From Nemertoderma westbladi (lineage: Eukaryota > Animalia > Xenacoelomorpha), in NCBI GenBank assembly GCA_032718475.1, contig JAUCBJ010007780.1:1-34721 (forward strand): DNA of 34,721 bases, in the 5' to 3' direction. Made by a program: the position numbers and the translations under genes. Position 1 is the first letter of the stretch. Each line of letters opens with the position of its first letter. Below the pieces are notes generated by a model. It was not told the DNA's origin, did no database searches, and saw nothing but the letters and a program-made list of their open reading frames with translations. Shown here piece after piece: positions 1,550 to 34,364 of this stretch.

Positions 1550-2401
1550 CTGGTACATGCCCCCCCCCCCCCCCAAATTTTTCTACAAATCGTAATGAGA
1601 TTGTATGAAATTTGAAACAGAGATAGTTTCACCTCCCTCCTCCTCCGTGGGTGAGCTATAATTTTTATTTAACTTTCATTCTTTAGCTACAAGCGTTTGA
1701 AAATAGTGTCTCCGGCGAAATTGCACCAGTTACACCGCAGTTATTCTTCAACCTTATTATGATTTGTTACTGTAGTACTAATTTAAAGCTAGTCGTGCAA
1801 GGATTCCAAAAATGTAAAAACATTTGAATTTGGTAGAGAAATAGCCGAGATATGGGCATTCGAAAGTTGCATGTATTTGCTTCCCCTGCACGCCATTTAT
1901 TCTATTTAATAAATACATCATATTCTGGAACATTTTGTTTATCCCATACGTAGCTGGGCAACAATGCAATGCTTCTTTAAACATACTATTATGTAGCTAT
2001 TCATACATAAACAAAATGCTCTAGAATATAGTGTTTTTATTTAATAGAATAAAACAGCCTCGCGCAGGTGCAAAACCATGAAACTTTTGAACGCTCATAT
2101 CTCAGCTATTTCACAACCAAATTCAAATATTTTTACATTTTTGGAATCCTTGCATGGTTAGCTTTCTATTTCTACCAACAAATCGCGATAAGGTTCATGA
2201 ATAACTGCAGTGTAACTGGTGAAATATTACTGGAGACACCTTTTTCAAACGCTTGTAGTTAAAGATTGAAAGCAAAAATAAAAATTCAGGCTCACCCAGT
2301 AAGGAGGAGGGAGGTGAAACTAACTCTGTTTCAAATTTCATGCAATCTCATTAAGATTTGTAGAAAATTTTTTTTGGGGGGGGGGGGCGTCCACGTACCA
2401 G
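1550..2401. mobile_element. Foldback-type MITE, almost entirely palindromic (~400-bp arms)
   Basis: Ends CTGGTAC...poly-C / poly-G...GTACCAG. Arm 1550-1955 is the imperfect reverse complement of 1994-2401 (e.g. tttcacctccctcctcct vs aggaggagggaggtgaaa; aggattccaaaaatgtaaaaa vs tttttacatttttggaatcct). No TSD resolved. Confidence 0.85.
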
Positions 2402-5117: not shown

Positions 5118-5123
5118 GACACC

Positions 5124-5479
5124 GCTGAGGATACCAAATCTGTGGATGGCACATTCACAAGAATTCTACGTCGGGTTCACTGAGTCAAGAACAAATGCAC
5201 ACATCTCCAACCAGACACTATAGTTACATCATTTGAGGTGTCTTATTGCCACCCCCCCCCCCCCCCCCCCCCACGCCAAGCATGATACTTGGGCGGGGCC
5301 GCCTCTGCATCGCATGACATTGCTTTTGCCACTAGGACCAGCAAGGGCACGCACAATCTTGTATTTTAGCAGCCTCATTGAGAGAATATGCATGGTGGAC
5401 AGCCCATGATTTTATTGAGACGCATCTTAAAGGACACTGGCCTTGATGATGCGTATAATCTGGCGAAAGTCATGAGGGG
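5124..5479 (+). mobile_element. Degenerate 3' fragment of RTE-clade non-LTR retrotransposon
   Basis: Reverse-complement homolog of 6304-6680 (shared gctgagga..ccaaatct.tggatggcacattcacaagaat and gagacgcatcttaaaggacactggcctt), with stops, frameshifts and a poly-C insertion. Confidence 0.8.
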
Positions 5480-6303
5480 TACATAATTGTTGTGGCTCTA
5501 TTTTCTCGGTAACACGAAATAGCTGCAAACTGCAATTCCGGCCTGCCGTTTGAAGAATTGCATGGTGGCAGCGCAATTTTATTATTAAGCCGGCATAGCT
5601 ATGCCATATGCCAATGCTGCGACAATGCAGCACGCCGATAAAAGATAGAAGATATTTTCAATACACTATAATTTCATTGTAGCCGAGTAGACAGTCAACA
5701 CATTCTACTACTGTAGTGCGGAGTGATATAGAAATATTAGGTAATGCAACTATTGGGGTTGCATGCCTAGGCGGTTATTACTACGGTAGTACCTGGTGCC
5801 TATTGCCAAGGCATATTCTACTATGGTTGTACTGTGTGTCAAGGCGCCAGATACTTCGGTGGTATACTGTACCTGTAGTATTCACTCCGTTGTTGTTATG
5901 TTGGTGTTGTTGTTGTTGTTAATTTCTTGTTAGGTATTGGTATTAGGGCTTTGTACGTCTCCAGTAGCTCTTTTAATTACTATAGTAGTTACCCTGGTTA
6001 CCCTGGTTGAGGTGCTAATTTAAAACAACAAAATTTTTAATTTTAATTTTTTTAATTTTAATTTTAATTTTTAATTTAATCTTTAATTAATTATTGAGTA
6101 CTGGCAAGGAAGGAATTTTTAATTTCATTAAAGGTTTACGTTTAATTAAACGAGTATCATTTAATCGTGTTATATTTATAAATAAATTATATAGTTGTCT
6201 ATACTTATGAGTAAAATAATAAACTTTCAATAATGTGTCATGACTTCAAATGCATATCCATTAGTACAACTACTGGGATCGGCATGCTGCTGCAGCTGCA
6301 TTT

Positions 6304-6735
6304 TTAAGAATGATGTGCCGGCTTGACGACAAAATTGCGCCGCCACAACTCCCTATCACCCATGACATTTGCTAGATCATCCGCATCTTTAAGGCCAGTG
6401 TCCTTTAAGATGCGTCTCAAGAAAGTCATGGGCTGTCCACCATGCTTATTCTCTCCATGAGGCTGCCAAAGTACAAGATTATGCACTGGCTGGTCCTCAC
6501 GGCGAAAGCAATGTCCTGCAAAATGGAGGCAATTTTGATCTAGTGTCAAGCTTGGGGGAACCAATGAGATACCTCCAATGTTATACAGTGTCTGGTCGGA
6601 GATGTGTGCATTGTACTTGACACAATAAACCCGGCGTAGCATTCTTGTGAATGTGCCATCCAGAGATTTGGTGTCCTCAGCAGTTAGAGCCCAGCATGGA
6701 CTCCCATAGAGGAGTACCGGAACTACTGCTACTCT
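6304..6735 (-). mobile_element. 5'-truncated RTE-clade LINE, C-terminus of the RT ORF
   Basis: Translation VPVLLYGSPCWALTAEDTKSLDGTFTRMLRR...LHFAGHCFRREDQPVHNLVLWQPHG...GGQPMTFLRRILKDTGL...MGDRELWR matches the typical RTE post-RT C-terminal motifs (LLYGxExW, F(A)GHxxR, GRP, DRxxWR). Confidence 0.85.
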
Positions 6736-7109
6736 AAATAATCCATTAGTACCGTGTATTTATAAGGGAATTAGCAAACGGAGGCCTACCAATTAGCGGG
6801 GGGAGGGAGGGGAGGGGCGGTTTCCAGCAATCCCGCAGTCAAGAACGCCCATCATTTGCAACGCTTCCAAAACTACGTTGCATTTTTGGAGGTTTTAGTT
6901 CATGATAGTTTCACTGTAGTATGCAGATCCAGGTATTATAAAACTAAAGTAATGAGTCGACTTGAGTTATGAAATACATAAAATATAAATATTGGATTGA
7001 AAAGATTATGGAAAATTGGTAAGATGTATGTTTGATTGATTGTTTAAACTGTACTTTAATATATTTAGAAGGTGACGTTTAAAGTGTTTCGAAAAGGGTA
7101 ATGTATTTG

Positions 7110-7730: not shown

Positions 7731-7766
7731 CCAGCCCTAGCTCAGTTGGTAGAGCGTGGGACTTGG
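7731..7766 (+). pseudogene. Truncated tRNA-derived SINE head / tRNA pseudogene fragment
   Basis: A-box and D-arm TAGCTCAGTTGGTAGAGCG followed by TGGGACT; no intact T-arm or B-box, so not a functional tRNA. Confidence 0.6.
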
Positions 7767-7975
7767 ACAGTTCATGCGTTAGTAGACGCGGACTTTCACT
7801 TTCAATTTCACGCTTGTTAAGGTAGTATTATCTGTCTGAAACTCCGGCATTCGAGTTATCTCAACTGTTTATTGGACTGTAGTGGATTGATTATCAGTGG
7901 TTCAGTGTTACGAAAACTTCGGAAATGCAAAATATTATTAATATTATTACATGTTACTGTTATTTTTATTTTCAG

Positions 7976-13455: not shown

Positions 13456-15141
13456 CTAATTATTAGTTTGGTTGAAAAATACTTTTTTGGTTAACGTTGT
13501 TTCCGGAAGAGAAACCTGTTTGGATAGGTCTTCGAAAGTTATGTTAGTTAACCTTCGGTTGACTTCGGTCAAAATCGAAATCAGGTCGTGTTTATTCGCA
13601 TACTCGTTGATACAATTACACAACTCCTTTATGTAATATCCTCTGTAGGACAAGTGACCAGGCGTGGTCGAATGGGCGATTAGGAAGTCCTGCTCCGAGG
13701 CGACGTAATGCGATGGGGCCCCGACGCTGTCAGTCGGAGGCAATTTCGCGCTCTCCATAGACTTCAGCCCCATGCAAGCCTGGAAAAAGAACATTTTTGG
13801 TTTCCACGCCAATTTAGGACAAACTGTGGCCTGGAAGTGGGTGGTTAGTTGAGAGTATTCAATGGGTATACTGTCAGATCCAAATAGGAAGCCATCCTTT
13901 CCGTGTGTCATTATGAAACAAATAAACGAGTCGCAATCTTTGTGGTATGGTTCCCGGGAGGTATAACATAGAACGCTGTAGAGATCCTCCGCTGTCAAGT
14001 CGAGTCTAATTGCCACCTTGTAACCAAGATTTCTGAACGTATTCTCCAGGCTTTTGACATCTTCCTCGCTTCCCGTTCTATCCTCCAGATTTTCGTCATC
14101 GTGATTTGTTTTCGTAAAGTGGTAATTGTTTATAATAAGACACAATCCATGAGGCCTTTTGGACATATCATATTGAAAATCTGGTCCTTCGCTGAAGGAT
14201 GTCACAATATCCTCCTGTACAGATTGCCTATCTGCAACCTGATGGTTGTCTCCAAATATTTCATTTTTGACCAATGATTCACTGGCCCCTAGCGTAGGCG
14301 CAGTGTGATTGTATCTTTCTTGCGTCTCCTCTTGATACGATTGCCCCACTTCACTGACAACAAAACTCTTATGAAGTTTTGCGAACCATACACTTCCGGT
14401 ATATTTGTCCACTTTAATTTGTGTCTGTCTTAGATGAGCGTTTGCGCCAACAAAATCAGCCAAGACAGAGACATCCTTCTCGCTAATGATTCTAGACTTT
14501 TCTAGAATGCGTATGAGTCCTATAGTATCGGAAACCTGATCCCAATCACAGCGAGGTGTTACGGAATTCCACGTCAGACACTTGAAATCATTAAAATCCT
14601 TTTTGGTAAAATCTTTAATAACCTCGTAAAGCAGCGCCCGATATGGCGAGATGTGGGTGAAGGGATTCTGATGGATTTTGTATTGTATTTTTAGACGATC
14701 CGTATTGAATATTTGAAGTAGGTCCATTCGTACCACCATGTACAGGAGAATCTCCAAAAATTCCGTGTTATTCTCATCAATGAGCCCTATTCGACAGAGT
14801 TCTTGGAGCAGTTTCTTTCCCGAGTCAATTTCTTCCAGTCTGCTTTCATAGATTTTATCGGAACACAAGAACTTCATGCGTCGAATGTCGCGTCGATTTA
14901 GATTGTTGGCCACTCGTTCTAGTTGATTTTGGAAAGTTCCATGGTGGATTCGTACCGCATCCACCGGTGGATTGTTGACATAGCCTCTCTCGGGATTCAT
15001 TGGAGGAGGAGAGTCATCAGTTGGAACACTTCTCATAGTTGCCATGACAATACGATGACGTAGATGTTGTTTAAACAACGTCTTATTTTGACCAAAATAC
15101 GAAAAATGTTTATTAATTTTAGTTTTTTCATGTACACTCAT
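13456..15141 (-). CDS. CASP8: Caspase-8/10-like initiator caspase (two death effector domains + peptidase C14), single exon; probable start at Met33 (15045)
   Basis: DED1 (MKFLC...RMDLL, RxDL motif), DED2 (ISPYRALLYEV...), p20 (PHGLCLIINN, DRTGS, catalytic His in IMTHG, KPKMFFFQACMG), p10 (QDFLIAHST...SYR...DLISILTEVN...TLTKK). Orthology among CASP8/CASP10/CFLAR was not tested. Confidence 0.93.
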   Translation of the reverse strand: MSVHEKTKINKHFSYFGQNKTLFKQHLRHRIVMATMRSVPTDDSPPPMNPERGYVNNPPVDAVRIHHGTFQNQLERVANNLNRRDIRRMKFLCSDKIYESRLEEIDSGKKLLQELCRIGLIDENNTEFLEILLYMVVRMDLLQIFNTDRLKIQYKIHQNPFTHISPYRALLYEVIKDFTKKDFNDFKCLTWNSVTPRCDWDQVSDTIGLIRILEKSRIISEKDVSVLADFVGANAHLRQTQIKVDKYTGSVWFAKLHKSFVVSEVGQSYQEETQERYNHTAPTLGASESLVKNEIFGDNHQVADRQSVQEDIVTSFSEGPDFQYDMSKRPHGLCLIINNYHFTKTNHDDENLEDRTGSEEDVKSLENTFRNLGYKVAIRLDLTAEDLYSVLCYTSREPYHKDCDSFICFIMTHGKDGFLFGSDSIPIEYSQLTTHFQATVCPKLAWKPKMFFFQACMGLKSMESAKLPPTDSVGAPSHYVASEQDFLIAHSTTPGHLSYRGYYIKELCNCINEYANKHDLISILTEVNRRLTNITFEDLSKQVSLPETTLTKKVFFNQTNN

Positions 15142-15410
15142 ATCGACATATTTATGTGAATAATTTATTAATTAATTTAATTATTTCATGCTAATCTACA
15201 GTCTTATCAGAATAAACTTATTATTATCTGGAATTATTCAGTAATAGTGTTATCTAAGCAAATATCCCCTTTATAATATTCAATTTCCGCCGCAGGAATA
15301 AATATCGCATATATATATATTCCTTGCCAATATAAAATTCCCACATGAATAAAGACTGTCTTGAGGGTCGGGTGGGGTAATTACAGTACAACATGCTAGC
15401 CATTATTTAT

Positions 15411-15420: not shown

Positions 15421-15510
15421 TTGTCATATTCCGGTGAGTTTATGAATAAGCGCAGAATTTAATACAGACAAGTACAAACATAAACTGGCACTACATTGAA
15501 ATCGAATAGG

Positions 15511-18601: not shown

Positions 18602-21600
18602 ACACGTTCGTGGGCCCTCGCGCAGCACGAGGCCCAGTTATTAGATACAAATTAAAATTGAGCGACTGTATCACAAAATCAGGTTTTGAGAAATTTACCC
18701 ACACCACCAATCAATCAAAGAAAGGGGGACAGTACGTGTTCACCCCCTTTAATCCCCCCCCCCCCCCCCAACCTTCCCAACCACCAATACATAACCGGGA
18801 CATCTACCACCCACGGAAGGGTAGCACGAACTTATTTCCAATCGCACGTTAAATATGCAAAGCCAGGTGGTTTATAGGAATATAATAAACGCAGTACTCG
18901 TTTTCATTATAAGCCTCTTTGCGTTCGTCCTGTTTTGTATTTAAATATATTTCTTAAACGCAGGCTGACGATATTTATAATAATAATAACTAGGGATGCG
19001 ATCAATATGTGAAGCCAGGTGGTTTATATAATAATTTAGTCAACGAGGTACTCGTCTTCATTATATGCCTCGTTGCGCTCGTCGCTTGTCCTGTTTTGTC
19101 ATAAAATATTTTTCCTAAACGCAGACTGACGATCTTTATACAGTTATAACTATGCGAAGTTTCGAAACTGTGCGATACATCTATGTGGAGATGTGTGATA
19201 TGTGGAGATGTGTGATACAACGCCAACGCATCTTATGCCGATGTAGTAATATGGGTATTGAAATAATATTAAATCAATGTACACTCTTAAAGCTGCAGCG
19301 AAAAAATGTAGCTAATTTCCTAGGTTACATATAAAATAATAATATTATTTTTAAGAACATTAATTTTACTACTTTGCAAAAATTCAATTAAAAAATAACC
19401 AGACATATATACATTGTGGAATAAACTATTTCAGATAAGCCTACACAACAGCCATGCCATGGATGGTATTTATGTTATTATATCTGTCATTTACCTGAGA
19501 TAGCAATACAACACTTATAGTAGAGTCAATACAGGAAAGATGTTGGGATGTTGGAATGCTGCCTGGGCTGGAATAGCAATACTGGTTGCCTATTACAGTA
19601 CAATTCCTCTCTGGTTAGTCTACAGCCACAACTCCAAGCTAGCTCCACACCAGCAGAGACATGATCAATAATCATTCCCAGCAACTAGCTGCTGCCTTAC
19701 ACACACATCCTTCCATCTTACCAGCATGTTAGCCAATAAATGAGCAGTATTTAATGAGAATCAATTTTTTATGACGTTTTAATTACTTTAGATCAATTAA
19801 AGACACAATTAATAAAGCAAATCACTTGAACTAATTAAAAACTATAATAGAATGGGGTATGTGGATTACATCTGTATAATTTTTAATTATAATTATTTAA
19901 ATCTTATACTGTAAAACAATTAATTTCCTTTAAAAGGCAGGTTGAAAATGGTGTTTTTACCGTAATAACTTAATTAACTAATTAACTGCTATTATCTTAG
20001 CTTCTCGAAGGCCACAAGGAAATTCTACTTGGAAAATTTCTAAACTTTTGCCAAACAACATGTGTACCAAGTTTGGATAGATTTCATCAAAGATTGGCCG
20101 AGTTATTAACGTTTAAAATTGAACACTGCAAAAAAAGCGACAGAACGACAGAACGACACGTTCGTGGGGCCTTCGCGCAGCACGAGGCCCAGTTATGAGA
20201 TACAAATTAAAATTGAGCGACTGTATCACAAAATCAGGTTTTGAGAAATTTACCCACACCACCAATCAATCCAAGAAAGGGGGACAGTACGTGTTCACCC
20301 CTTTTAATCTCTCCACCCCCCCCCCCCCCCACCCTTCCCAACCACCAATACATAACGGCGACATCTACCACCCACGGAAGGGTAGAACGAACTTATTTCC
20401 AATCGCACGTTCAATATGCAAAGCCAGGTGGTGTATAGGAATATAATCACCGCCGTACTCGTCTTAATTATTATAAGCGTCGTTGCGCTCGTCCTGTTTT
20501 GTATTTAAATATATTTCCTAAACGCAGACTGGCAATCTTTATAACTATGGATACGTGCAATATGCGAAACCAGGAATGGTTTATACGAATATAATCAATG
20601 CAGAACGCAGTACTAAATTCAGTCGATGCAGTAATGATATTCAAATAATTAATTTATTAATACCAGTACCCTCTGTTAATGCCTCAGTGTAAAAACTTAG
20701 ACAATTCAACTACAAAGAAATCCCATCAAAAAATAATAAGCCCAATATTTATGAGGAAAAAACAAGTATGGATATAAATAAGCCTCCTGCAGTGGTAAAA
20801 TGTTATAACGAACCTGTCTTTAGACTGGGTAGTTTTTGTCTAAAGCTGAGGCCGGCAAAAACACGATGGATATATTTACCTATGTATATCACTATATATG
20901 TCACTATATCACTCACTATGTATGTTCACCAAATGGCTTGAAACCACTTGCATGCATTGTAAAATTGTAAACGCAAGTATTTATCAATTGTTGTCTAGTT
21001 GTTGAATAAAAAAGTTGGGAACGATTCGAAGTGCGATATTCGAAATATTTGCATATTTTCAACATTATTGAACGCGAAATTAAATACCCACAACTCCCTT
21101 GCTTGAAATGTTTTTCAGGTGATTGATATTTAGCAATTATTATGAGGTTACTTACTACTGAAATCTGACAGAATGCCAAACGTATTATTATAGTTCTATC
21201 TCTATTCAGCCAGTTAGTGTAATGTCAAGCAGTACATCATTTATATATCGTATGTATCTATAGGGCCTAATTGTCATCGTTATAATACTGTCATCAACTT
21301 AGGCTAAGCTCAATTGTAATGCAAAGGCTTAGTAGGTTTTGTATATCTGGGACGTTTACAACAGCTGTCGATTAAACTAACAAAACCATAAAACTGAACC
21401 AGGGTGGCTGCCAGCCGGGTACCAACGGCTGTTGGGTAGACTTAAGGGAACATTTCACAAACTTTCATAGGATGCTTGTACATGTACATTATATTGGTTG
21501 CTCCGATGTTTTTATTAGGCTAACTGAGAATGTATCAGGTATAAATACTGTAATTAGTGTTCTTTATTTTATTTATCTAATACAGAAAAGACCCCTCCGC

Positions 21601-24251
21601 AGAATAAACTGCTCTTTTGGGCCGTTTCTCAGGTTGCGGATATGGATACCATTTCACACATCATCGTAGTAATTGTGATTATGATTTGTTTGCCTAGGCG
21701 AATGTGTATTACATTAGATGGGAGGCAGTTTTTTGGTTGATGCAAGTCATTCTTGGTTTGCATCTTCCAATCCCATCTGTTTCTTGGAGTCTGTGTAAGA
21801 CAGGTTCGTTTAAAGCCATCTTGATGGCGTTCTAGTTGACTGACATTTATTAAATGAGATCTGTCTAACACACAATAACACAATAATAGACTGAATAGTA
21901 GGGAATTGCTAGCTATGGCCAATCTGTCTACCGGCCTGTACACATGTGGTTACTTACATTCGCATTCCCATTGAAGAGCAACTGGCTGTTCTACACACAC
22001 CAAACATCCTTCCTATCTATCCTATTTACCAGCACCGAGCCAACTTGGATGTTAACCAATAAATGAGCAGTATTTAATGAGAATCAATTTTTTTGCCGTT
22101 TTAATTACTTTAGATCAATTAAAGACACTAATTATTAAAGCAAATCACTTGAACTAATTAAAAACTATAATAGAATGACGTATGTGGATTACATCTGTAT
22201 AATTTTTAATTATAATTATTTAAATCTTATACTGTAAAACAATTAATTTCCTTTAAAAGGCAGGTTGAAAATGGTGTTTTTACCGTAATCAACTTAATTA
22301 ACTAATTAACTGCTATTATCTTAGCTTCTCGAAGGCCACACGGAAATTCTACTTGGAAAATTTCTAAACTTTTGCCAAACAACATGTGTACCAAGTTTGG
22401 ATAGATTTCATCAAAGATTGGCCGAGTTATTAACGTTTAAAATTGAACGCGACAGAACGACAGAACGACAGAACGACAGAACGACAGAACGACAGAACGA
22501 CAGAACGACAGGTTGATTAATGGTACCACTACGCTAAGGCTCACTCACTTCGTGGCTCGCCCCACAGAACGACACGTTCGTGGGGCCTTCGCGCAGCACG
22601 AGGCCCAGTTATTAGATACAAATTAAAATTGAGCGACTGTATCACAAAATCAGGTTTTGAGAAATTTACCCACACCACCAATCAATCAAAGAAAGGGGGA
22701 CAGTACGTGTTCACCCCCTTTAATCCCCCCCCCCCCCCCCCCCCAACCTTCCCAACCACCAATACATAACCGGGACATCTACCACCCACGGAAGGGTAGC
22801 ACGAACTTATTTCCAATCGCACGTTAAATATGCAAAGCCAGGTGGTTTATAGGAATATAATAAACGCAGTACTCGTTTTCATTATAAGCCTCTTTGCGTT
22901 CGTCCTGTTTTGTATTTAAATATATTTCTTAAACGCAGGCTGACGATATTTATAATAATAATAACTAGGGATGCGATCAATATGTGAAGCCAGGTGGTTT
23001 ATATAATAATTTAGTCAACGAGGTACTCGTCTTCATTATATGCCTCGTTGCGCTCGTCGCTTGTCCTGTTTTGTCATAAAATATTTTTCCTAAACGCAGA
23101 CTGACGATCTTTATACAGTTATAACTATGCGAAGTTTCGAAACTGTGCGATACATCTATGTGGAGATGTGTGATATGTGGAGATGTGTGATACAACGCCA
23201 ACGCATCTTATGCCGATGTAGTAATATGGTTATTGAAATAATATTAAATCAATGTACACTCTTAAAGCTGCAGCGAAAAAATGTAGCTAATTTCCTAGGT
23301 TACATATAAAATAATAATATTATTTTTAAGAACATTAATTTTACTACTTTGCAAAAATTCAATTAAAAAATAACCAGACATATACATTGTGGAATAAACT
23401 ATTTCAGATAAGCCTACACAACAGCCATGCCATGGATGGTATTTATGTTATTATATCTGTCATTTACCTGAGATAGCAATACAACACTTATAGTAGAGTC
23501 AATACAGGAAGGATGTTGGGATGTTGGAATGCTGCCTGGGCTGGAATAGCAATACTGGTTGCCTATTACAATTTCTCTCTGGTTAGTCTACAGCCACAAC
23601 TCCAAGCTAGCTCCACACCAGCAGAGACATGACCAATAATCATTCCCAGCAACTACAGTAGCTGCTGCCTTACACACACATCCTTCCATCTTACCAGCAT
23701 GTTAGCCAATAAATGAGCAGTATTTAATGAGAATCAATTTTTTATGACGTTTTAATTACTTTAGATCAATTAAAGACACAATTAATAAAGCAAATCACTT
23801 GAACTAATTAAAAACTATAATAGAATGGGGTATGTGGATTACATCTGTATAATTTTTAATTATAATTATTTAAATCTTATACTGTAAAACAATTAATTTC
23901 CTTTAAAAGGCAGGTTGAAAATGGTGTTTTTACCGTAATAACTTAATTAACTAATTAACTGATATTATCTTAGCTTCTCGAAGGCCACAAGGAAATTCTA
24001 CTTGGAAAATTTCTAAACTTTTGCCAAACAACATGTGTACCAAGTTTGGATAGATTTCATCAAAGATTGGCCGAGTTATTAACGTTTAAAATTGAACACT
24101 GCAAAAAAAGCGACATAACGACAGAACGACAGAACGACAGGTTGATTAATGGTACCACTACGCTAAGGCTCACTCACTTCGTGGCTCGCCCCACAGGTTG
24201 ATTAATGGTACCACTACGCTAAGGCTCACTCACTTCGTGGCTCGCCCCACA
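18602..24251 (+). mobile_element. Head-to-tail array of three non-autonomous Helentron/DINE-1-like elements (18602-20155, 20156-22565, 22572-24251)
   Basis: Each unit starts ACACGTTCGTGGG plus a GC hairpin, has ~150-bp internal repeats, and ends with tgtaccaagtttgg...(GACAGAAC)n; units 2 and 3 add the tail ...ctcacttcgtggctcGCCCCACA. Short subterminal IR GTGGGGC/GCCCCAC. Units 1 and 3 are near-identical. No transposase ORF. Confidence 0.75.
22449..22511. repeat. (CGACAGAA)n octamer microsatellite
   Basis: About 8 perfect copies; shorter versions at ~20138 and ~24111. Confidence 0.95.
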
Positions 24252-25800: not shown

Positions 25801-26141
25801 GAAGAAAGTTGCAAAAATTTGTGGAACTAGAAAAGAAACTGAAACGATTTTTTCGGGTGGGGGGACTGGAACTGAAACTAATTTTCTGTCAGTTCGAAGC
25901 GCTACTTCCAACCTATCATAGCATCCCTCATAATGTGATGTGCAGCGGGAAATTTGAATTCACCAAGAGCCAACGTTTGTAACAGTCTTAATCATCCTGT
26001 ATCCTCATTGATCCTGCAGGCTGCAGCAAACAGGCAACTGCTACCGGTAACACAATCAACTGATCAACGACTGAACGAATCAAAGTACAATCGGACAGTA
26101 ACAACCTACTGACACCGCTTTACCAGTTTTAATCAACTGCA

Positions 26142-26891
26142 ATGACTTCGTTTATTCGACTGCCGGTACCTTTACTAACGCCTCGTCGTTCCCACCAATC
26201 CTTACCGACATCGACGTTCGGCCCGGTAGCGACGGGGTTCGGTGTCTACAAGAACCCGTCATGGCGGGACCCGGACCCGCTGGCAGGCAGACTGGACACC
26301 CAGACCAACCGGAACTGGCGCCCTTCACCGGCGCCCCACGGCTACTACAAGGCGCAGACCGCGGATTTCGTACCGTTGTACATGCGCGACCCAACCGTCG
26401 CTAAGTTCACCCGAGTGCTAATGATCGAGGGTAAACGCCGCGAATGCGAGGAGATTATGGCGGCGACATTCGAGCGGATTAAGCGACACCAACTTGACCG
26501 GCACCACAAAGACAGAGACAAACCCGTGGAATTGGACCCCTTGAAGGTGTTCAAATCGGCATTGAGTAACTGCCGCCCATTATTGGGACTCAAAAAGGTT
26601 GTGGGAGGTGGGGGCATTGTGTACCAGGTCCCGGTGCCCATGTCTGATAAACGTAGTGTCTGGTTGGCTATGCGGTGGCATATCACGGAGGGGCGGGAAC
26701 TTGCGCGCCCGTTGTACGGCGGAATGACTCGACACCACATGGACGAGAGGTTGGCAATTCTGCTTCTAGACTCTTATAATAATAACGGGAAAGTTGTACA
26801 GCGTAAAATTAATTTGCACAAAAGGTGCGAACAGAACAAAGCTTACGCTCATTTTAGGTGGTTCCCAACGCGAAAGAGAATGAAAAAATAG
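26142..26891 (+). CDS. MRPS7: Mitochondrial small ribosomal subunit protein uS7m, single exon
   Basis: Basic, acid-free N-terminus like a mitochondrial presequence; S7 motifs DPTVAKF..LMIEGKR, DPLKVF..AL.NCRP, GG.VYQVPVP..DKRS..LAMRW, LHKRCEQNKAYAHFRW; AATAAA at ~27235. Confidence 0.93.
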   Translation: MTSFIRLPVPLLTPRRSHQSLPTSTFGPVATGFGVYKNPSWRDPDPLAGRLDTQTNRNWRPSPAPHGYYKAQTADFVPLYMRDPTVAKFTRVLMIEGKRRECEEIMAATFERIKRHQLDRHHKDRDKPVELDPLKVFKSALSNCRPLLGLKKVVGGGGIVYQVPVPMSDKRSVWLAMRWHITEGRELARPLYGGMTRHHMDERLAILLLDSYNNNGKVVQRKINLHKRCEQNKAYAHFRWFPTRKRMKK

Positions 26892-27555: not shown

Positions 27556-27890
27556 GGCGAGTAGCTCAGTCGGTTGAGCGCTGTGTCTGAAATCTATTGG
27601 TTGTAGGTTCAGCCCCGCCAGGGTTCACTCAGCCTTTCATCCACTGCGGTCAATAAAATTAGTACCAGTTCATTTACTGGGAGTAAAACAAGGGATAGGA
27701 GTAGCGCCCACCCCTACCCACGGGTGGCAGATAGGAGTAGCGCCCAGCCCTACTCTCGGGTAGCAGATAGGAGTAGCGCCCACCCCTACCCGCGGGTAGC
27801 AGATATGAGTAGCGCCCACCCCTACCCTCGGGTGGCAGCTATCGAAGGAGGAGCTTTTGCGTCGCCTCCGGCCTCGACCGACTGTCTCCC
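27556..27890 (+). mobile_element. tRNA-derived SINE with a conserved central domain (Meta-SINE-like)
   Basis: A-box TAGCTCAGTCGG and degenerate B-box GGTTCAGCCC, then actcagcctttcatcc...gtcaataaaattagtaccag, which from memory resembles the central domain shared by many invertebrate SINEs. Superfamily assignment unverified. Confidence 0.75.
27694..27837. repeat. Four tandem copies of a 36-bp GC-rich unit inside the SINE
   Basis: GATAGGAGTAGCGCCCACCCCTACCCNCGGGTRGCA starting at 27694, 27730, 27766 and 27802. Confidence 0.95.
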
Positions 27891-28192: not shown

Positions 28193-28718
28193 TTGCGCAA
28201 TTAAAGTCTGGTGGAAGTTTTAGTGTATGAAGAAACGCCCGAAACTTATTGCTTCAACATTTTTATAAAGTATTATTTCCAGCAACATTTTAAAAAAAGT
28301 ATAATTTTTTCACTATTCTCGAGGTATTTTATTTACCGAGCGCCAGCGACGCATCGAGAAAACATTGAAAAAAAGTTCCATGGACTACGTTTTTTTCCTT
28401 GTAATACTTAATTTCCTTTATTATTAAATTACCCTACTCGGTTACTTCACCCGGTCTAATCTGTTTGCTATTTATACACCACCTACGATTTGATTATTGA
28501 TAGTAACAATGTGTTGGCAAGCTGTATTTTTCGAGGTGTTTGCTAGGGATCTAGGGGTCTTAACCTCGAATGATAAGTTTATTTTACCGAAAATAACTTA
28601 TCTTTTATTGGCGCAATTGTAGGACTAATCCCATCACATGCGTACTTTTTAACCGGGTAGTGTACAAATTTAGGAACCGCGTAATTTTTCTTGAAATTAA
28701 TATCTCATATCTCTCCAA

Positions 28719-28761
28719 ACCACGTACGCGTTTCGACCTTACTGGGTCTCATCAGCGTGGT
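28719..28761 (-). ncRNA. Type I hammerhead ribozyme (minimal stem III)
   Basis: Minus strand: ACCACG CUGAUGA GACC-CAGUAA-GGUC GAAA CGCG UA CGUGGU. All core nucleotides present, 6-bp stem I, 4-bp stem II, GUA triplet; predicted cleavage between 28725 and 28724. Confidence 0.92.
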
Positions 28762-28824
28762 GTCGGATTCGAACCTGGGACCTCGAGGTGGAAGCCGAGA
28801 CTACAACCACTAGGCCACAGGTTC
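28762..28824 (-). promoter_or_regulatory. tRNA-derived (Gly-TCC-like) internal RNA polymerase III promoter
   Basis: A-box TGGCCTAGTGG (28817-28807), B-box GGTTCGAATCC (28775-28765), anticodon-arm-like CTCGG-CTTCCAC-C(T)CGAG; no acceptor stem, so not a functional tRNA. Confidence 0.8.
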
Positions 28825-30478
28825 TTGAGATATGGAGTATTAATTTCAAAGCCAGCTGCCATTTTATTAGCCCCTGATTTTTGATTATTGATAGTAACAA
28901 TGTGTTTGGCAAGCTGTATTATTCGAGGTGTTTGTTATTATACATTTATTATAGGAAGGGATCTAGGGGTCTTAACCTCGAATGATAAGTTTATTTTACC
29001 GAAAATAACTTATCTTTTATTGGCGCAATTGTAGGACTAATCCCATCACATGCGTACTTTTTAACCGGGTAGTGTACAAATTTAGGAACCGCGTAATTTT
29101 TCTTGAAATTAATATCCTACGATTTGTTATACAAATCTTGACAGTTTAATTCAAATGTGAAAATTTTTTGGCCCGTGTGAAATTTATACACCACGTGAAA
29201 AATCCCCCAATGTGAAGAATACCAGGTGTCTCTAAAACCACAGGTTTCAGAAGGGCTGATTCTAACCAAAACAATAAACGAATAAGTATCTATACAGGTT
29301 ATAAAACACTTAATAAGGGGAAATTTGGAAAAATACAAATTCTTCATAATAATATATAAAATTCCAATATAATATCCCACATGGGCGGATTTTTTGGTGT
29401 AATTTCCTAAATGTTATTATATGAGTTAAAGAGAATCGACGTAATAGGTTTCTATGCAATCAAAATCCGTTCAAACACTCAAAAGTTATTGCAACTTTAG
29501 TATCTACAAGGGGTACACCAAAACGGAACTCAATATCCAATATTGGTTTATGTTGTTAAACGGCTCTCTAGTTACGTAATAAATATTCGAGAACAATCAA
29601 TTATTTTAACATTGAGTAAGGCAACATCAGGAGTTGAAGAGTAGAGTGATTGGAATCGCTGTAACTATGGAAGCAATATAGTAAAATACCAGTTCAATTT
29701 ATTTTGCAACAAAAAAAGTACCAATTTAAGAATAATAATTATTTATTACATGGGAAAAAAACTAGAACATTTTTTGTTCAATATTCTCTCGACCCCGTGA
29801 TAATAATTTTCAAAAAGTTCTACTTTTTTCCTTGTCATAAATAATAATTATTTCTTTCCATTTCTGCATCCATTTTTATACTAGCTGCTAATATTATAAT
29901 AATATAATTCTATTGACAATAATTATTATTTTCTTGAGCAACAAGTGTCCCGTCGTGTGAGGAGTCCAGCAAGGTTATTTAATAACTCTTATTTATAAAA
30001 AATACTAAGTGGCATGACAATGGTTCACACGGTCAGCCTCGCGTAGTGATATCGTAAACAAATCACTGCAAATGCAGCTAATAATTGCCAATCGTATTCA
30101 TAACAAATATTATCTTATTGAAATTCGATAAAAAAACCTTTCAATTGAATCAGTAATTTAATTATAATGTAAGTTTTAAGTAAGTAAAAATAATATAAAT
30201 AACACAATAAACAATAAATTAGTACACTCGAATAAACATCGTGGATACAATATACAATATACACCAGCGATAATATATATATTCGAAATTGTCAGATAAT
30301 AATTAATATGCAGCGATTATTATCTATTAGAGTCAATTTGGTGAATTGAATTGTGTTTTAGAGGTAAAACATTAACATTATTTCACATGTATGATGAATC
30401 TTTTAAATAAATAACAAATAGAAATAAACAAAGAAAAATATTGCAATTAAATTAACGTGTACCGGGGCATTGTTAGTA

Positions 30479-31381
30479 TCAATCACTCTTACTGGGTGTT
30501 GGAACGTCTGTATTCCTAATGACACTGAGGTCGATGAGTCCGTTAAGCATCTTGTAACATTTATCGATATCCTCAGGCGAAACCGATTCATTGTTCCTCG
30601 TGAGAATATCGTTAAAGTAAATAGTCACCTCAGTTTTGAGTCTCTCCAATCGCTGCTGCAGTTTATAATTATCCATCTGGTAAGCGATATTCTCTCTCTC
30701 GACGTAGCGCACTTGGTTCTCGAGATCTACGATTCGGATTTTCGCGTTCCTACAGGTTTTCTCCATCTCCGCATTGCCGTTCTGGAGTTCCTGGATCTCT
30801 TTATCTAAGAGTTTTAGATCTTCGGTCTCGATGTTCCCGCTCCCCGTTTCGTTTTTGGACTGGAGGAGTAGCAACTCGTCGATGGTGACCTTGGCTCGTT
30901 TCATAGCGGTAGAGGCTCGCGGACATCCCGACAGCGAGCGGTGGGTTAGGAAACTACCGTTGTTGTGTCCGGATCCGTCGCAACCGGGCGTCGGACAGCA
31001 TTGCGATTCGCCCTTCTGTAACTTAAGAAACTTTCCGTCCGGGAAGGCGACGTTGCCTCCTTTAGCTGCTATCGGACAGCCGGACGCGCTGCGGTGGCTG
31101 CTGAACTTCCCGGTCGCGTGGCCGCTCCCGCTGCAGCCGATTACCGGGCATCGTTGCGTCTCGTGCTCGAAGTTTGCGGGAGCGGTGAGTACGAAGGTGC
31201 GTTTAGCGGTATCGGAGGCGGCCGTGGACGGGGCTAGGTTCATTGGGAGACCGCCGCGTGTTACGTTGTGATTCAGTGACGAGACTCCCGGACTGGTTTG
31301 CTGGGATGAAACCGTAGGTGATTGGTTTCCGACTATAACAATTGGATTGACAACTTCTTTACCATTTAAACTAGTCATCAT
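30479..31381 (-). CDS. MYT1: Myt1/ST18-family (ZTF-11-like) C2HC zinc-finger transcription factor, two fingers plus C-terminal coiled coil
   Basis: [26 protein letters not shown] and [28 protein letters not shown] are canonical Myt1 CCHHC fingers; [12 protein letters not shown]...[15 protein letters not shown] is the family coiled coil. First ATG at 31381 (the track starts at a TTG); upstream exons cannot be excluded. Confidence 0.9.
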
Positions 31382-31467
31382 CAAGTCATACGTACTTACT
31401 ACAGTACTACCTGACTACTGGACTACTGTCTGACTGTGAAATACTACAGCTCTACGTACACTGGTGC

Positions 31468-33495: not shown

Positions 33496-33802
33496 GGACG
33501 TCCCGAAATTAATGTATGGACGTCCCGAAATTAATTTATGGACGTCCCGAAATTAATTTATGGACGTCCCGAAATTAACTATATGGACGTCCCGAAATTA
33601 ATTTATGGACGTCCCGAAATTAACTATATGGACGTCCCGAAATTAATGTATGGACGTCCCGAAATTAATTTATGGACGTCCCGAAATTAATTTATGGACG
33701 TCCCGAAATTAATTTATGGACGTCCCGAAATTAACTATATGGACGTCCCGAAATTAACTTATGGACGTCCCGAAATTAACTTATGGACGTCCCGAAATTA
33801 AT
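33496..33802. repeat. 22-23-bp minisatellite (GGACGTCCCGAAATTAA + 5-6 nt), 14 copies, with an inverted copy at 33844-33870
   Basis: Counted directly. Confidence 0.95.
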
Positions 33803-33960
33803 CTATCAACCAATCAGAATCGTAATGAAATAACTAATTAATAGACGTCCATAAATTAATTTCGGGATGTTAATTTCGGAAATTAATTTCAATAATTTTT
33901 TTTTTTATTATAAAGATTTTTTTAAATATTTTTTTACAATGTATAATTCGCGAACACTGC

Positions 33961-34364
33961 GGGGTGACTACAAAACAAAGACCCAATTAAAAGACCTGCA
34001 TAATCTTGTTACATGTGTTAACTTTCGTTAATTGTTTTGAATCCCCCGTCACGCCTCTGTAACTTGCTCCTTTACTAACCTGCTCCTTTAAATAGCAATG
34101 GTGCGTAACGCTCATTGTGACCTGTACTAAACAAAGAGGTAAAGTCGCGTTACGTCCCAAAGAGCGTTAGGTTCCAAAGAGCTTTAGGTCCCATTGCCAG
34201 AGAGCGTGAGGTCACATTGCCATTTAAAGGAGCAGGTTAGTAAAGAAGCAGGTTACAGAGGCGTGTTGGGGTACCAAAACAATAAACGAAAGTTAACACA
34301 TGTGTTTTGTATTTGTACAGGTCTTTATTATTTGGGTCGTTGGTCTTTGTTTTGTAGTCACCCG
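33961..34364. mobile_element. MITE with ~150-bp TIRs and target-site duplication (Mutator-like)
   Basis: Arms 33961-34113 and 34202-34364 are imperfect reverse complements (ggtgactacaaaacaaagacc / ggtctttgttttgtagtcacc); ACACTGC(GG) duplicated at 33954 and 34365. Confidence 0.8.

What the first reader, a model, noticed from the sequence alone, without database searches (positions are those of the whole stretch)
28714..28767. Intact hammerhead with palindromic minimal stem III, and stem I extending into the tRNA T-arm/B-box
Core CUGAUGA/GAAA/UA is perfect. Stem III is only A-CGCG-U, a self-complementary ACGCGU. This resembles the minimal hammerheads of Penelope-like elements and newt satellite 2, which cleave efficiently as dimers. 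Stem I can extend past a bulged C (UCCGA with UUGGA), using the 3' half of the B-box, so promoter and ribozyme overlap and tRNA-like versus ribozyme folds may compete.
Basis: partly seen in the sequence, partly recalled or inferred. Interest (0 to 1): 0.8.

Follow-up and report, generated by a model that had tools for sequence, protein, structure and literature searches.

The report
tRNA-headed hammerhead retrozyme, 1.5-unit insertion
This is an intact hammerhead self-cutting RNA motif inside one copy of an abundant 412-base non-coding repeat of an animal, placed right behind a decayed tRNA-like promoter motif, a design already known from blood flukes; it is predicted to cut well only in pairs, and this copy was likely pasted in from a small RNA circle read one and a half times round.

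Summary
The hammerhead is real: minus strand 28767-28714, perfect core, predicted cut after 28725; no equally good match in 300 shuffled windows. It is the canonical animal type I form with a newt/axolotl-like one-pair helix III, not the minimal Penelope form. A double-hammerhead fold is favoured in silico. It lies in a 412-bp non-coding unit that is very abundant in three DNA runs. Here the unit is inserted as a 1.5-mer (28493-29115) between 11-bp target duplications. Both terminal repeats share a base almost absent from the rest of the family, which points to one circular template. The B-box does overlap helix I, but fold competition is not supported: the T-stem keeps 2 of 5 pairs, and a cloverleaf-like fold costs about 18 kcal/mol. 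A tRNA-like promoter followed by a hammerhead with a short palindromic helix III is the known Schistosoma Sm-alpha design. The scan noted this family twice before elsewhere in this genome. Verdict: new member of a known kind (non-LTR retrozyme). Cleavage, Pol III transcription and circles are untested.

The parts
28482..28492 (.). target-site duplication, left copy (11 bp)
   Evidence: identical to 29116-29126; the 11-mer occurs only at these two places in the window
28493..29115 (-). whole insertion, about 1.5 units of the repeat, circularly permuted, holding one hammerhead
   Evidence: read depth rises at 28489-28493
28493..28703 (-). terminal direct repeat, RNA-3' copy; lacks 20 nt that most copies carry
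   Evidence: 209 of 211 aligned bases identical to 28884-29115, plus a 1-nt and a 20-nt gap; loose ends at 28542-28550
28884..29115 (-). terminal direct repeat, RNA-5' copy
28705..29116 (-). one full 412-nt unit (the predicted circle): non-coding, 39.6% GC
   Evidence: circular MFE -105.6 vs shuffles -82.1 +/- 4.9, z -4.8; longest ATG frame 44 aa; one 441-nt contig in X5 runs once round the unit
28714..28767 (-). canonical type I hammerhead with one-pair palindromic helix III; predicted cut between 28725 and 28724
28760..28824 (-). decayed tRNA-like head (Gly-like TCC loop remnant), folding as a hairpin rather than a cloverleaf
   Evidence: relaxed ARAGORN call; tRNA profile E 7e-4; fold; not called at default ARAGORN or by Rfam
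28807..28817 (-). A-box-like motif (TGGCCTAGTGG)
   Evidence: only A+B box pair in the window
28765..28775 (-). B-box motif (GGTTCGAATCC); in the RNA its 5' half pairs with the head's 5' end and its last three bases start lower helix I
28691..28713 (.). inverted-repeat arm closing head plus ribozyme (partner 28827-28849)
   Evidence: 20 of 23 bases match; paired in the fold, z -4.55 for 28696-28850
28827..28849 (.). inverted-repeat arm upstream of the head
28590..28593 (-). first T4 run downstream of the head, possible weak Pol III stop (one per unit; also 29002-29005)
29116..29126 (.). target-site duplication, right copy (11 bp)

Best explanation
The hammerhead is the predicted processing ribozyme of an abundant, young, 412-bp non-coding repeat (a non-LTR retrozyme of the Sm-alpha design), whose tRNA-derived A/B boxes likely drive Pol III transcription and whose RNA is likely cut into unit circles that another element's reverse transcriptase copies back into the genome. 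Shown: the motif, the unit, its abundance, the permuted 1.5-unit layout and the 11-bp target duplication. Predicted by folding: the one-pair helix III is unstable in a monomer and becomes a 6-bp helix when two hammerheads pair. Cutting would then be efficient only in tandem transcripts, while a unit circle would resist being re-cut. Inferred from known retrozymes: ligation by an RtcB-type ligase, then target-primed reverse transcription by a Penelope-like or LINE enzyme, here about 1.5 times round one template. This locus has one hammerhead, so it cannot itself release a unit-length monomer. The head no longer folds as a tRNA: its old 5' acceptor strand pairs with the 5' half of the B-box, and the B-box end starts lower helix I, so promoter and ribozyme share bases without competing.
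For: Motif and controls. Abundance: summed contig depth over 28492-28890 is about 1e5-8e5, against 16-82 on the covered left flank in X1 and X2 (the tool warns this is no copy number). Head-to-tail joint 28879/28880 to 28489 in 4 of 4 runs, depth 4557 in X2. TSD and junctions: (4-nt microhomology at the RNA-3' junction). One template: both terminal repeats carry C at 28677/29089, whereas 460631 of 460726 depth units in X1, 244631 of 244684 in X2 and all in X4 and X5 read T. Dimer: closing helix III costs 5.2 kcal/mol in the monomer; two strands fold to the double hammerhead at -42.7 against 2 x -17.2. Core, A box and B box show no variant at 1% or more in X1-X3. Literature: retrozyme features (PMC7229834 Results parts 1-2 of 3); Sm-alpha as promoter followed by hammerhead, apparently Pol III transcribed (PMC6765202 passages); B-box-like motif and short palindromic helix III seen by eye in the Sm-alpha t-2 sequence (PMC8490949 supplement part 7).
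Against: No cleavage, transcription or circle was observed; X5 is only guessed to be RNA and is coded as another organism. The two terminal repeats also differ by 2 substitutions, a 1-nt and a 20-nt gap, which must then have arisen during or after insertion. The family is so uniform that core conservation shows youth, not selection, and covariation cannot be measured. The head is below default tRNA detection, has one T4 run per unit, and T-runs are not depleted beyond base composition. The opposite strand folds as well as the hammerhead strand (-109.0 vs -105.6). In a survey of Xenopus retrozyme dimers 8 of 9 did not cleave (bioRxiv 10.64898/2026.07.22.740005).
Confidence: 0.7

Rival explanations
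1. Same element, but the hammerhead cuts well as a monomer, because loop 1-loop 2 contacts rescue the weak helix III; the palindrome is incidental.
For: Loop 2 (CAGUAA) and the bases flanking helix I (AC on the 5' side, U on the 3' side) match the HH9 consensus. Newt monomers can cleave with a looped helix I extension (PMC6155905 passage). Folding energies omit tertiary contacts.
Against: Axolotl HHR_Amex1, with the same one-pair helix III and all tertiary contacts, cleaved 6% in 1 h as a monomer and much better as a dimer (PMC7229834). Helix III pair probability is 0.0.
Confidence: 0.2
2. The 1.5-mer was copied from a linear multimer of a small homogeneous tandem array, or arose by DNA-level recombination or conversion; no RNA circle is involved.
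For: The RNA-5' end of the insertion lies about 20 nt 3' of where the upstream unit's cut site would be, which also fits a cleaved linear template. In a purified Penelope protein, uncleaved RNA was the main substrate and initiation was internal (PMC11167929). The repeats are not identical.
Against: The C shared by both repeats is carried by only about 95 depth units in X1 and 53 in X2, against flank depths of about 25 and 16, which leaves little room for a separate source array.
Confidence: 0.25
3. One reading: tRNA-like and ribozyme folds compete through the T-arm and so regulate cutting.
For: The B-box end does form lower helix I. An anticodon-arm remnant of 5 pairs with an 8-nt loop survives.
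Against: T-stem 2 of 5 pairs; T-stem and anticodon-stem probabilities 0.0 in two linear contexts and the circle; constrained fold -24.1 vs -42.4 kcal/mol. The acceptor stem is broken.
Confidence: 0.07
4. An ordinary tRNA-derived SINE, or a small LTR element, that happens to carry a non-functional hammerhead.
For: A and B boxes, an 11-bp TSD, terminal direct repeats, and other tRNA-derived heads and a LINE-like fragment in the window.
Against: The head is internal to the insertion. Depth stays high upstream of the head and the unit closes head to tail. There is no poly(A) or simple tail, and the repeats do not end in TG...CA.
Confidence: 0.05

Closest known systems
Schistosoma Sm-alpha / Sj-alpha SINE-like hammerhead repeats (PMC6765202 passages; PMC2770079 passages; PMC8490949 passages and supplement part 7)
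   Same: tRNA-related promoter followed by a type I hammerhead in a repeat of a few hundred bp, high copy, promoter ending up at the 3' end of the cleaved monomer. In the t-2 sequence a B-box-like motif precedes the core and helix III is a short CG palindrome (read by eye).
   Different: Here the B-box lies 9 nt from the core and overlaps helix I (about 38 nt and no overlap in t-2, counted by eye). Helix III is one pair shorter. The head is Gly-like, not Gln-related. The unit is 412 bp, not 335. No alignment to Sm-alpha was run.
Metazoan non-LTR retrozymes (Cervera and de la Pena 2020, PMC7229834; Li et al. bioRxiv 10.64898/2026.07.22.740005)
   Same: Type I hammerhead in a 150-450 bp non-coding unit, GC under 50%, TSD longer than 4 bp, self-paired predicted circle.
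   Different: Carries an internal tRNA-type promoter motif, whereas a review states that retrozymes seem to lack promoters (PMC7761336 passage). This locus has one hammerhead, so it is not 'active' by the two-hammerhead rule of Li et al.
Newt satellite 2 / axolotl HHR_Amex1 hammerheads
   Same: Single-pair helix III capped by a palindromic tetraloop; dimer-favoured cleavage predicted.
   Different: Invertebrate host. Newt satellite transcripts appear to be Pol II products (PMC6765202), whereas this unit has Pol III-type boxes.
Minimal hammerheads of Penelope-like elements (PMC4209133, part 1 of 4 read)
   Same: Conserved core, negligible helix III, dimer model, partial-tandem layout.
   Different: [quoted passage not shown] None of this holds here.

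Membership tests
Canonical metazoan type I hammerhead | Intact core CUGANGA, GAAA, UH | tested here: met
Canonical metazoan type I hammerhead | Helix I 6 bp, helix II 4 bp, helix III 1-2 bp with a palindromic loop (PMC4209133) | tested here: met
   6 bp, 4 bp, 1 bp plus CGCG
Canonical metazoan type I hammerhead | Loop 1-loop 2 tertiary contact | tested here: inconclusive
   flanking bases match HH9, but loop 1 is shorter than the consensus
Canonical metazoan type I hammerhead | Self-cleavage | not testable with these tools
   needs an in vitro assay
Minimal PLE hammerhead | Long helix II, short helix I, poorly defined loop 1 (S. mansoni families) | tested here: not met
Minimal PLE hammerhead | In repeats flanking an RT + GIY-YIG frame | tested here: not met
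   no such frame at the locus; the genome was not available to search
Non-LTR retrozyme | 150-450 bp unit with a type I hammerhead, closing head to tail | tested here: met
   412 bp; joint in 4 of 4 runs
Non-LTR retrozyme | Non-coding, GC under 50%, TSD longer than 4 bp | tested here: met
   longest ATG frame 44 aa; GC 39.6%, TSD 11 bp
Non-LTR retrozyme | Highly self-paired circular fold | tested here: met
   z -4.8 against 100 shuffles; the opposite strand folds equally well
Non-LTR retrozyme | Two complete hammerheads in tandem at the locus ('active' copy) | tested here: not met
   1 hammerhead in the window. This lowers 'active locus', not family membership; longer arrays elsewhere are reported only in an unchecked note
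Non-LTR retrozyme | Expressed as circular RNA | not testable with these tools
   no RNA holder on record; contigs only
Sm-alpha-like promoter-hammerhead repeat | tRNA-derived A and B boxes directly upstream of the hammerhead | tested here: met
Sm-alpha-like promoter-hammerhead repeat | Transcription by Pol III | not testable with these tools
   motifs only
Sm-alpha family proper | Sequence homology to Sm-alpha | not tested
   sequence seen only in a supplement and compared by eye
Classical tRNA-derived SINE | Copies start at the tRNA head and end in a simple or A-rich tail | tested here: not met
   head internal; depth continues upstream; no tail

The most novel reading that the evidence does not exclude
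tRNA-headed retrozymes repeatedly rewire the captured tRNA. The old acceptor 5' strand becomes complementary to the B-box 5' half, which hides the tRNA shape from tRNA-processing enzymes, and the B-box end becomes the scaffold of the ribozyme's helix I. One stretch of bases then serves as Pol III promoter in DNA and as part of the catalytic fold in RNA. The same head hairpin and abutting hammerhead appear in an unrelated metagenomic unit (L064; head z -5.2, here z -2.9; 1 of 45 real tRNAs shows such pairing). With a dimer-only ribozyme, only tandem loci would make circles, and each 1.x-unit insertion would record rolling reverse transcription of one circle.
Probability: 0.25. Interest if true: 0.55.

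Novelty: new member of a known kind. Interest (0 to 1): 0.27.

Why it matters
As a class it is known. Its value is as a clean, young test case for two open points about animal retrozymes. First, whether some carry their own Pol III promoter; a review says they seem to have none, and Sm-alpha is the main counter-example I found. Second, whether insertions are copied from circles; here both terminal repeats share a near-private base. The overlap of B-box and helix I makes a neat double-duty mutagenesis experiment.

Tried and rejected
No whole genome is held, so copies could not be aligned and no partner RT could be sought. Rfam at gathering: 0 hits; Rfam on the head alone: 0 hits at E up to 10; default ARAGORN: 0. 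Covariation across copies could not be measured: 7 variant rows in all at 1% or more in any run, 5 of them from one decayed X4 contig, and only 28802 reaches 1% in X1-X3. No RNA holder was listed; X5's RNA label is a guess and is not used as evidence of expression. Terminator depletion on the transcribed strand is not significant (P about 0.55 against shuffles; 36 of 168 window tiles are as low). Pattern scans for B-box plus hammerhead core gave 4 viral and 75 metagenome loci; 7 of 79 had helices II and I, and none resembled the window's unit by blastn. No convincing likeness of the unit's 3' part to other window DNA (best E 0.011), so LINE versus Penelope partner is undecided. The D-stem pair probabilities used a wrong register and are not used. 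The tRNA profile failed to build and was run. Ferbeyre 1998 (PMC108972) and Lunse 2017 (PMC5785218) are not held, so what they say on promoter-ribozyme overlap is unseen; supplements of the bioRxiv preprint are closed. Searches (listings) showed no paper on B-box/helix I overlap. The empty target allele was not tested. The host could be placed only as an animal (single homologue, 37% identical, Owenia; Pfam).

Full report
Observation. The window is animal DNA (caspase with death-effector domains, ribosomal protein S7, C2HC zinc fingers; nearest named homologue 37% identical). On the minus strand, 28767-28714 holds a complete type I hammerhead: helix I of 6 bp, core CUGAUGA, helix II of 4 bp with loop CAGUAA, GAAA, CGCG, UA, and a predicted cut between 28725 and 28724. 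A descriptor that checks the helices finds this one site in the window, 0.01 per shuffled window, and no equally strong site in 300 shuffles. Rfam HH9 matches at E 1.7e-4 but below gathering.

Kind of hammerhead. Cervera and de la Pena (PMC4209133, part 1 of 4 read) describe canonical metazoan hammerheads as 6-bp helix I, 4-bp helix II and a 1-2 bp helix III with a palindromic loop. The minimal Penelope forms they describe in S. mansoni have a long helix II and a poorly defined loop 1. This motif is canonical. Its one-pair helix III with a palindromic tetraloop is that of amphibian satellite hammerheads; axolotl HHR_Amex1 cleaved 6% in an hour as a monomer and much better as a dimer (PMC7229834). 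Here, closing helix III costs 5.2 kcal/mol, the ACGCGU duplex gives -7.5, and two copies fold to the double hammerhead at -42.7 against twice -17.2. Dimer dependence is therefore predicted, not shown. Tertiary contacts are outside these energies, and newt monomers can cleave with a looped helix I (PMC6155905 passage).

The element. 28493-28703 and 28884-29115 are direct repeats (209 of 211 aligned bases, plus gaps of 1 and 20 nt). The stretch 28493-29115 is flanked by an 11-bp duplication found nowhere else in the window. One full unit is 412 bp, 39.6% GC and non-coding, and folds as a circle at z -4.8; the other strand folds as well. Laid on public contigs, summed depth over 28492-28890 is about 1e5-8e5, against 16-82 on the covered flank in X1 and X2. 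The joint from 28879/28880 back to 28489 stands in 4 of 4 runs, at depth 4557 in X2. The tool warns that depth is no copy number; hundreds of copies or more is my inference. One 441-nt contig in X5 goes once round the unit, as a circle or a tandem array would assemble; its RNA label is a guess. Depth does not fall upstream of the tRNA-like head, so copies do not start there as SINEs do. Twenty-two X2 and four X4 contigs have unlike sequence before 28493, a weak hint that this RNA-3' end recurs.

One template. Both terminal repeats have C at 28677/29089. In the family, 460631 of 460726 depth units in X1, 244631 of 244684 in X2 and all in X4 and X5 read T there. The simplest reading is that one unit carrying this variant was copied about 1.5 times, as reverse transcription round a circle would do, and that the few differences between the repeats arose during or after insertion. 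A small uniform source array or gene conversion is not excluded. The RNA-5' end also lies about 20 nt past the position of an upstream cut site, which fits a linear template too. The RNA-3' junction has 4 nt of microhomology and no poly(A) or inverted tail, in line with target-primed reverse transcription. The enzyme is not identified. A preprint (10.64898/2026.07.22.740005, parts 1-3 of 5 read) argues that animal retrozymes derive from Penelope-like elements; a purified Penelope protein initiates internally and prefers AT-rich targets (PMC11167929).

Conservation. Over 28696-28836 only 7 places vary at 1% or more in any of 4 runs (3 samples). Five come from one X4 contig with core changes (a decayed copy) and stay at or below 0.5% in X1-X3; only 28802, outside both boxes, reaches 2.7-4.6% there. 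The whole stretch is equally uniform, though, so this shows youth rather than selection, and covariation cannot be scored.

The head and the competition idea. The head has the window's only A+B box pair, a relaxed ARAGORN call as Gly/Trp-like and a tRNA-profile match at E 7e-4 (52 microbial tRNAs). Default ARAGORN and Rfam miss it. Its T-stem keeps 2 of 5 pairs; T-stem and anticodon-stem pairs have probability 0.0; forcing them gives -24.1 against -42.4 kcal/mol. Instead, positions 1-7 pair with CAGGUUC and the head forms a hairpin (z -2.9, 3 of 300 shuffles as good). A 23-nt inverted repeat closes head and ribozyme into one branched fold (z -4.55). So the overlap is real but the switch is not supported. 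A Pol III transcript would start near 28824 and meet its first T4 at 28593; T-runs are not specially depleted.

Known systems. A review describes the Schistosoma elements as a promoter followed by a hammerhead, apparently Pol III transcribed, with the promoter left at the 3' end of cleaved multimers (PMC6765202 passages). tRNA-Gln-like SINE copies resemble Sm-alpha (PMC2770079 passages). In the Sm-alpha t-2 sequence printed in the supplement of PMC8490949 (part 7) I read by eye a B-box-like motif about 38 nt before the core and a two-pair palindromic helix III; here the distance is 9 nt. The retrozyme criteria of PMC7229834 (Results parts 1-2 of 3) are met where testable, except that this locus has a single hammerhead. 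The primary Sm-alpha and minimal-hammerhead papers were not held. The scan's own unchecked notes describe this family at two other places in this genome and similar elements in two other genomes; a look-up by sequence and one by place returned nothing.

Elsewhere. A B-box-plus-core pattern gave 79 loci in viral and metagenome contigs; 7 had helices I and II and none was similar to this unit. One, L064, has the same design in unrelated sequence, with a head hairpin and lower helix I starting at the last B-box base. Three, plus one more found, are intact tRNA-His genes whose -1 base coincides with a hammerhead cut site (see noticed in passing).

Verdict. Real, well explained, a new member of a known kind; interest 0.27. 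Shown: motif, unit, abundance, layout, TSD. Predicted: fold and dimer preference. Inferred: Pol III transcription, cleavage, circles, reverse transcription.

Noticed in passing
L002:528-594 (same contig as L090, L214), L013, L016, L127 (same contig as L254): In 4 distinct contigs (2 viral, 2 metagenomic with tRNA clusters) a type I hammerhead's predicted cut falls exactly one base before ARAGORN's tRNA-His start, i.e. at the -1 position (G in 3, U in 1). In 3 of them the CCA end of the upstream tRNA (Gln or Thr) lies in helix I. Every tRNA found near a cut site was His at this offset: 5 loci among 57 with a hammerhead of 124 scanned, and 2 among 49 of 121, with repeats of contigs. L002, L013 and L016 came from a scan that did not select for the downstream tRNA. 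This suggests a ribozyme making the tRNA-His 5' end in place of RNase P. Not seen in search listings or in PMC3088659 (term search). Untested; may deserve its own follow-up.
   Followed up: partly
L064 (minus strand 550-670 of the locus): Unrelated tRNA-like head plus type I hammerhead with a short palindromic helix III, in a contig with identical ends and telomere-like repeats (likely a eukaryotic tandem unit). The head folds as a hairpin whose 5' end pairs with the B-box.
   Followed up: partly
L049: A hammerhead directly follows an intact tRNA-Gln, with the CCA end in helix I, but no tRNA lies after the cut.
   Followed up: partly
window 27558-27611 (+) and 7738-7769 (+): Two other tRNA-derived heads (profile E 3e-5 and 6e-4), probably ordinary SINEs; no hammerhead follows them.
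   Followed up: partly
window 6304-6759 (-) and 5121-5508: Fragment whose translation resembles the C-terminal part of an RTE-type LINE protein (my recall; no Pfam hit), with an inverted related piece at 5121-5508.
   Followed up: no
window 13456-15171 (-), 26133-26891 (+), 30479-31414 (-): Long single open frames for a DED caspase, a ribosomal protein S7 (probably mitochondrial) and a C2HC zinc-finger protein; the first two look intronless.
   Followed up: partly
window 18602-20158 and 22572-24131: A 1.57-kb duplication, 98.5% identical, built from smaller repeats that recur at 15510, 20155 and 22049.
   Followed up: no
window 1550-2401, 33496-33890, 33962-34363: Long self-inverted (foldback or MITE-like) stretches; the one at 33496 is built on a 22-bp tandem unit.
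   Followed up: no
runs X1-X3, pieces on window 28707-28813: Diverged contigs (18 differences in 107 bases) match only the head-plus-hammerhead module and have unlike flanks: possibly an older family sharing the module. Their letters were not visible.
   Followed up: no
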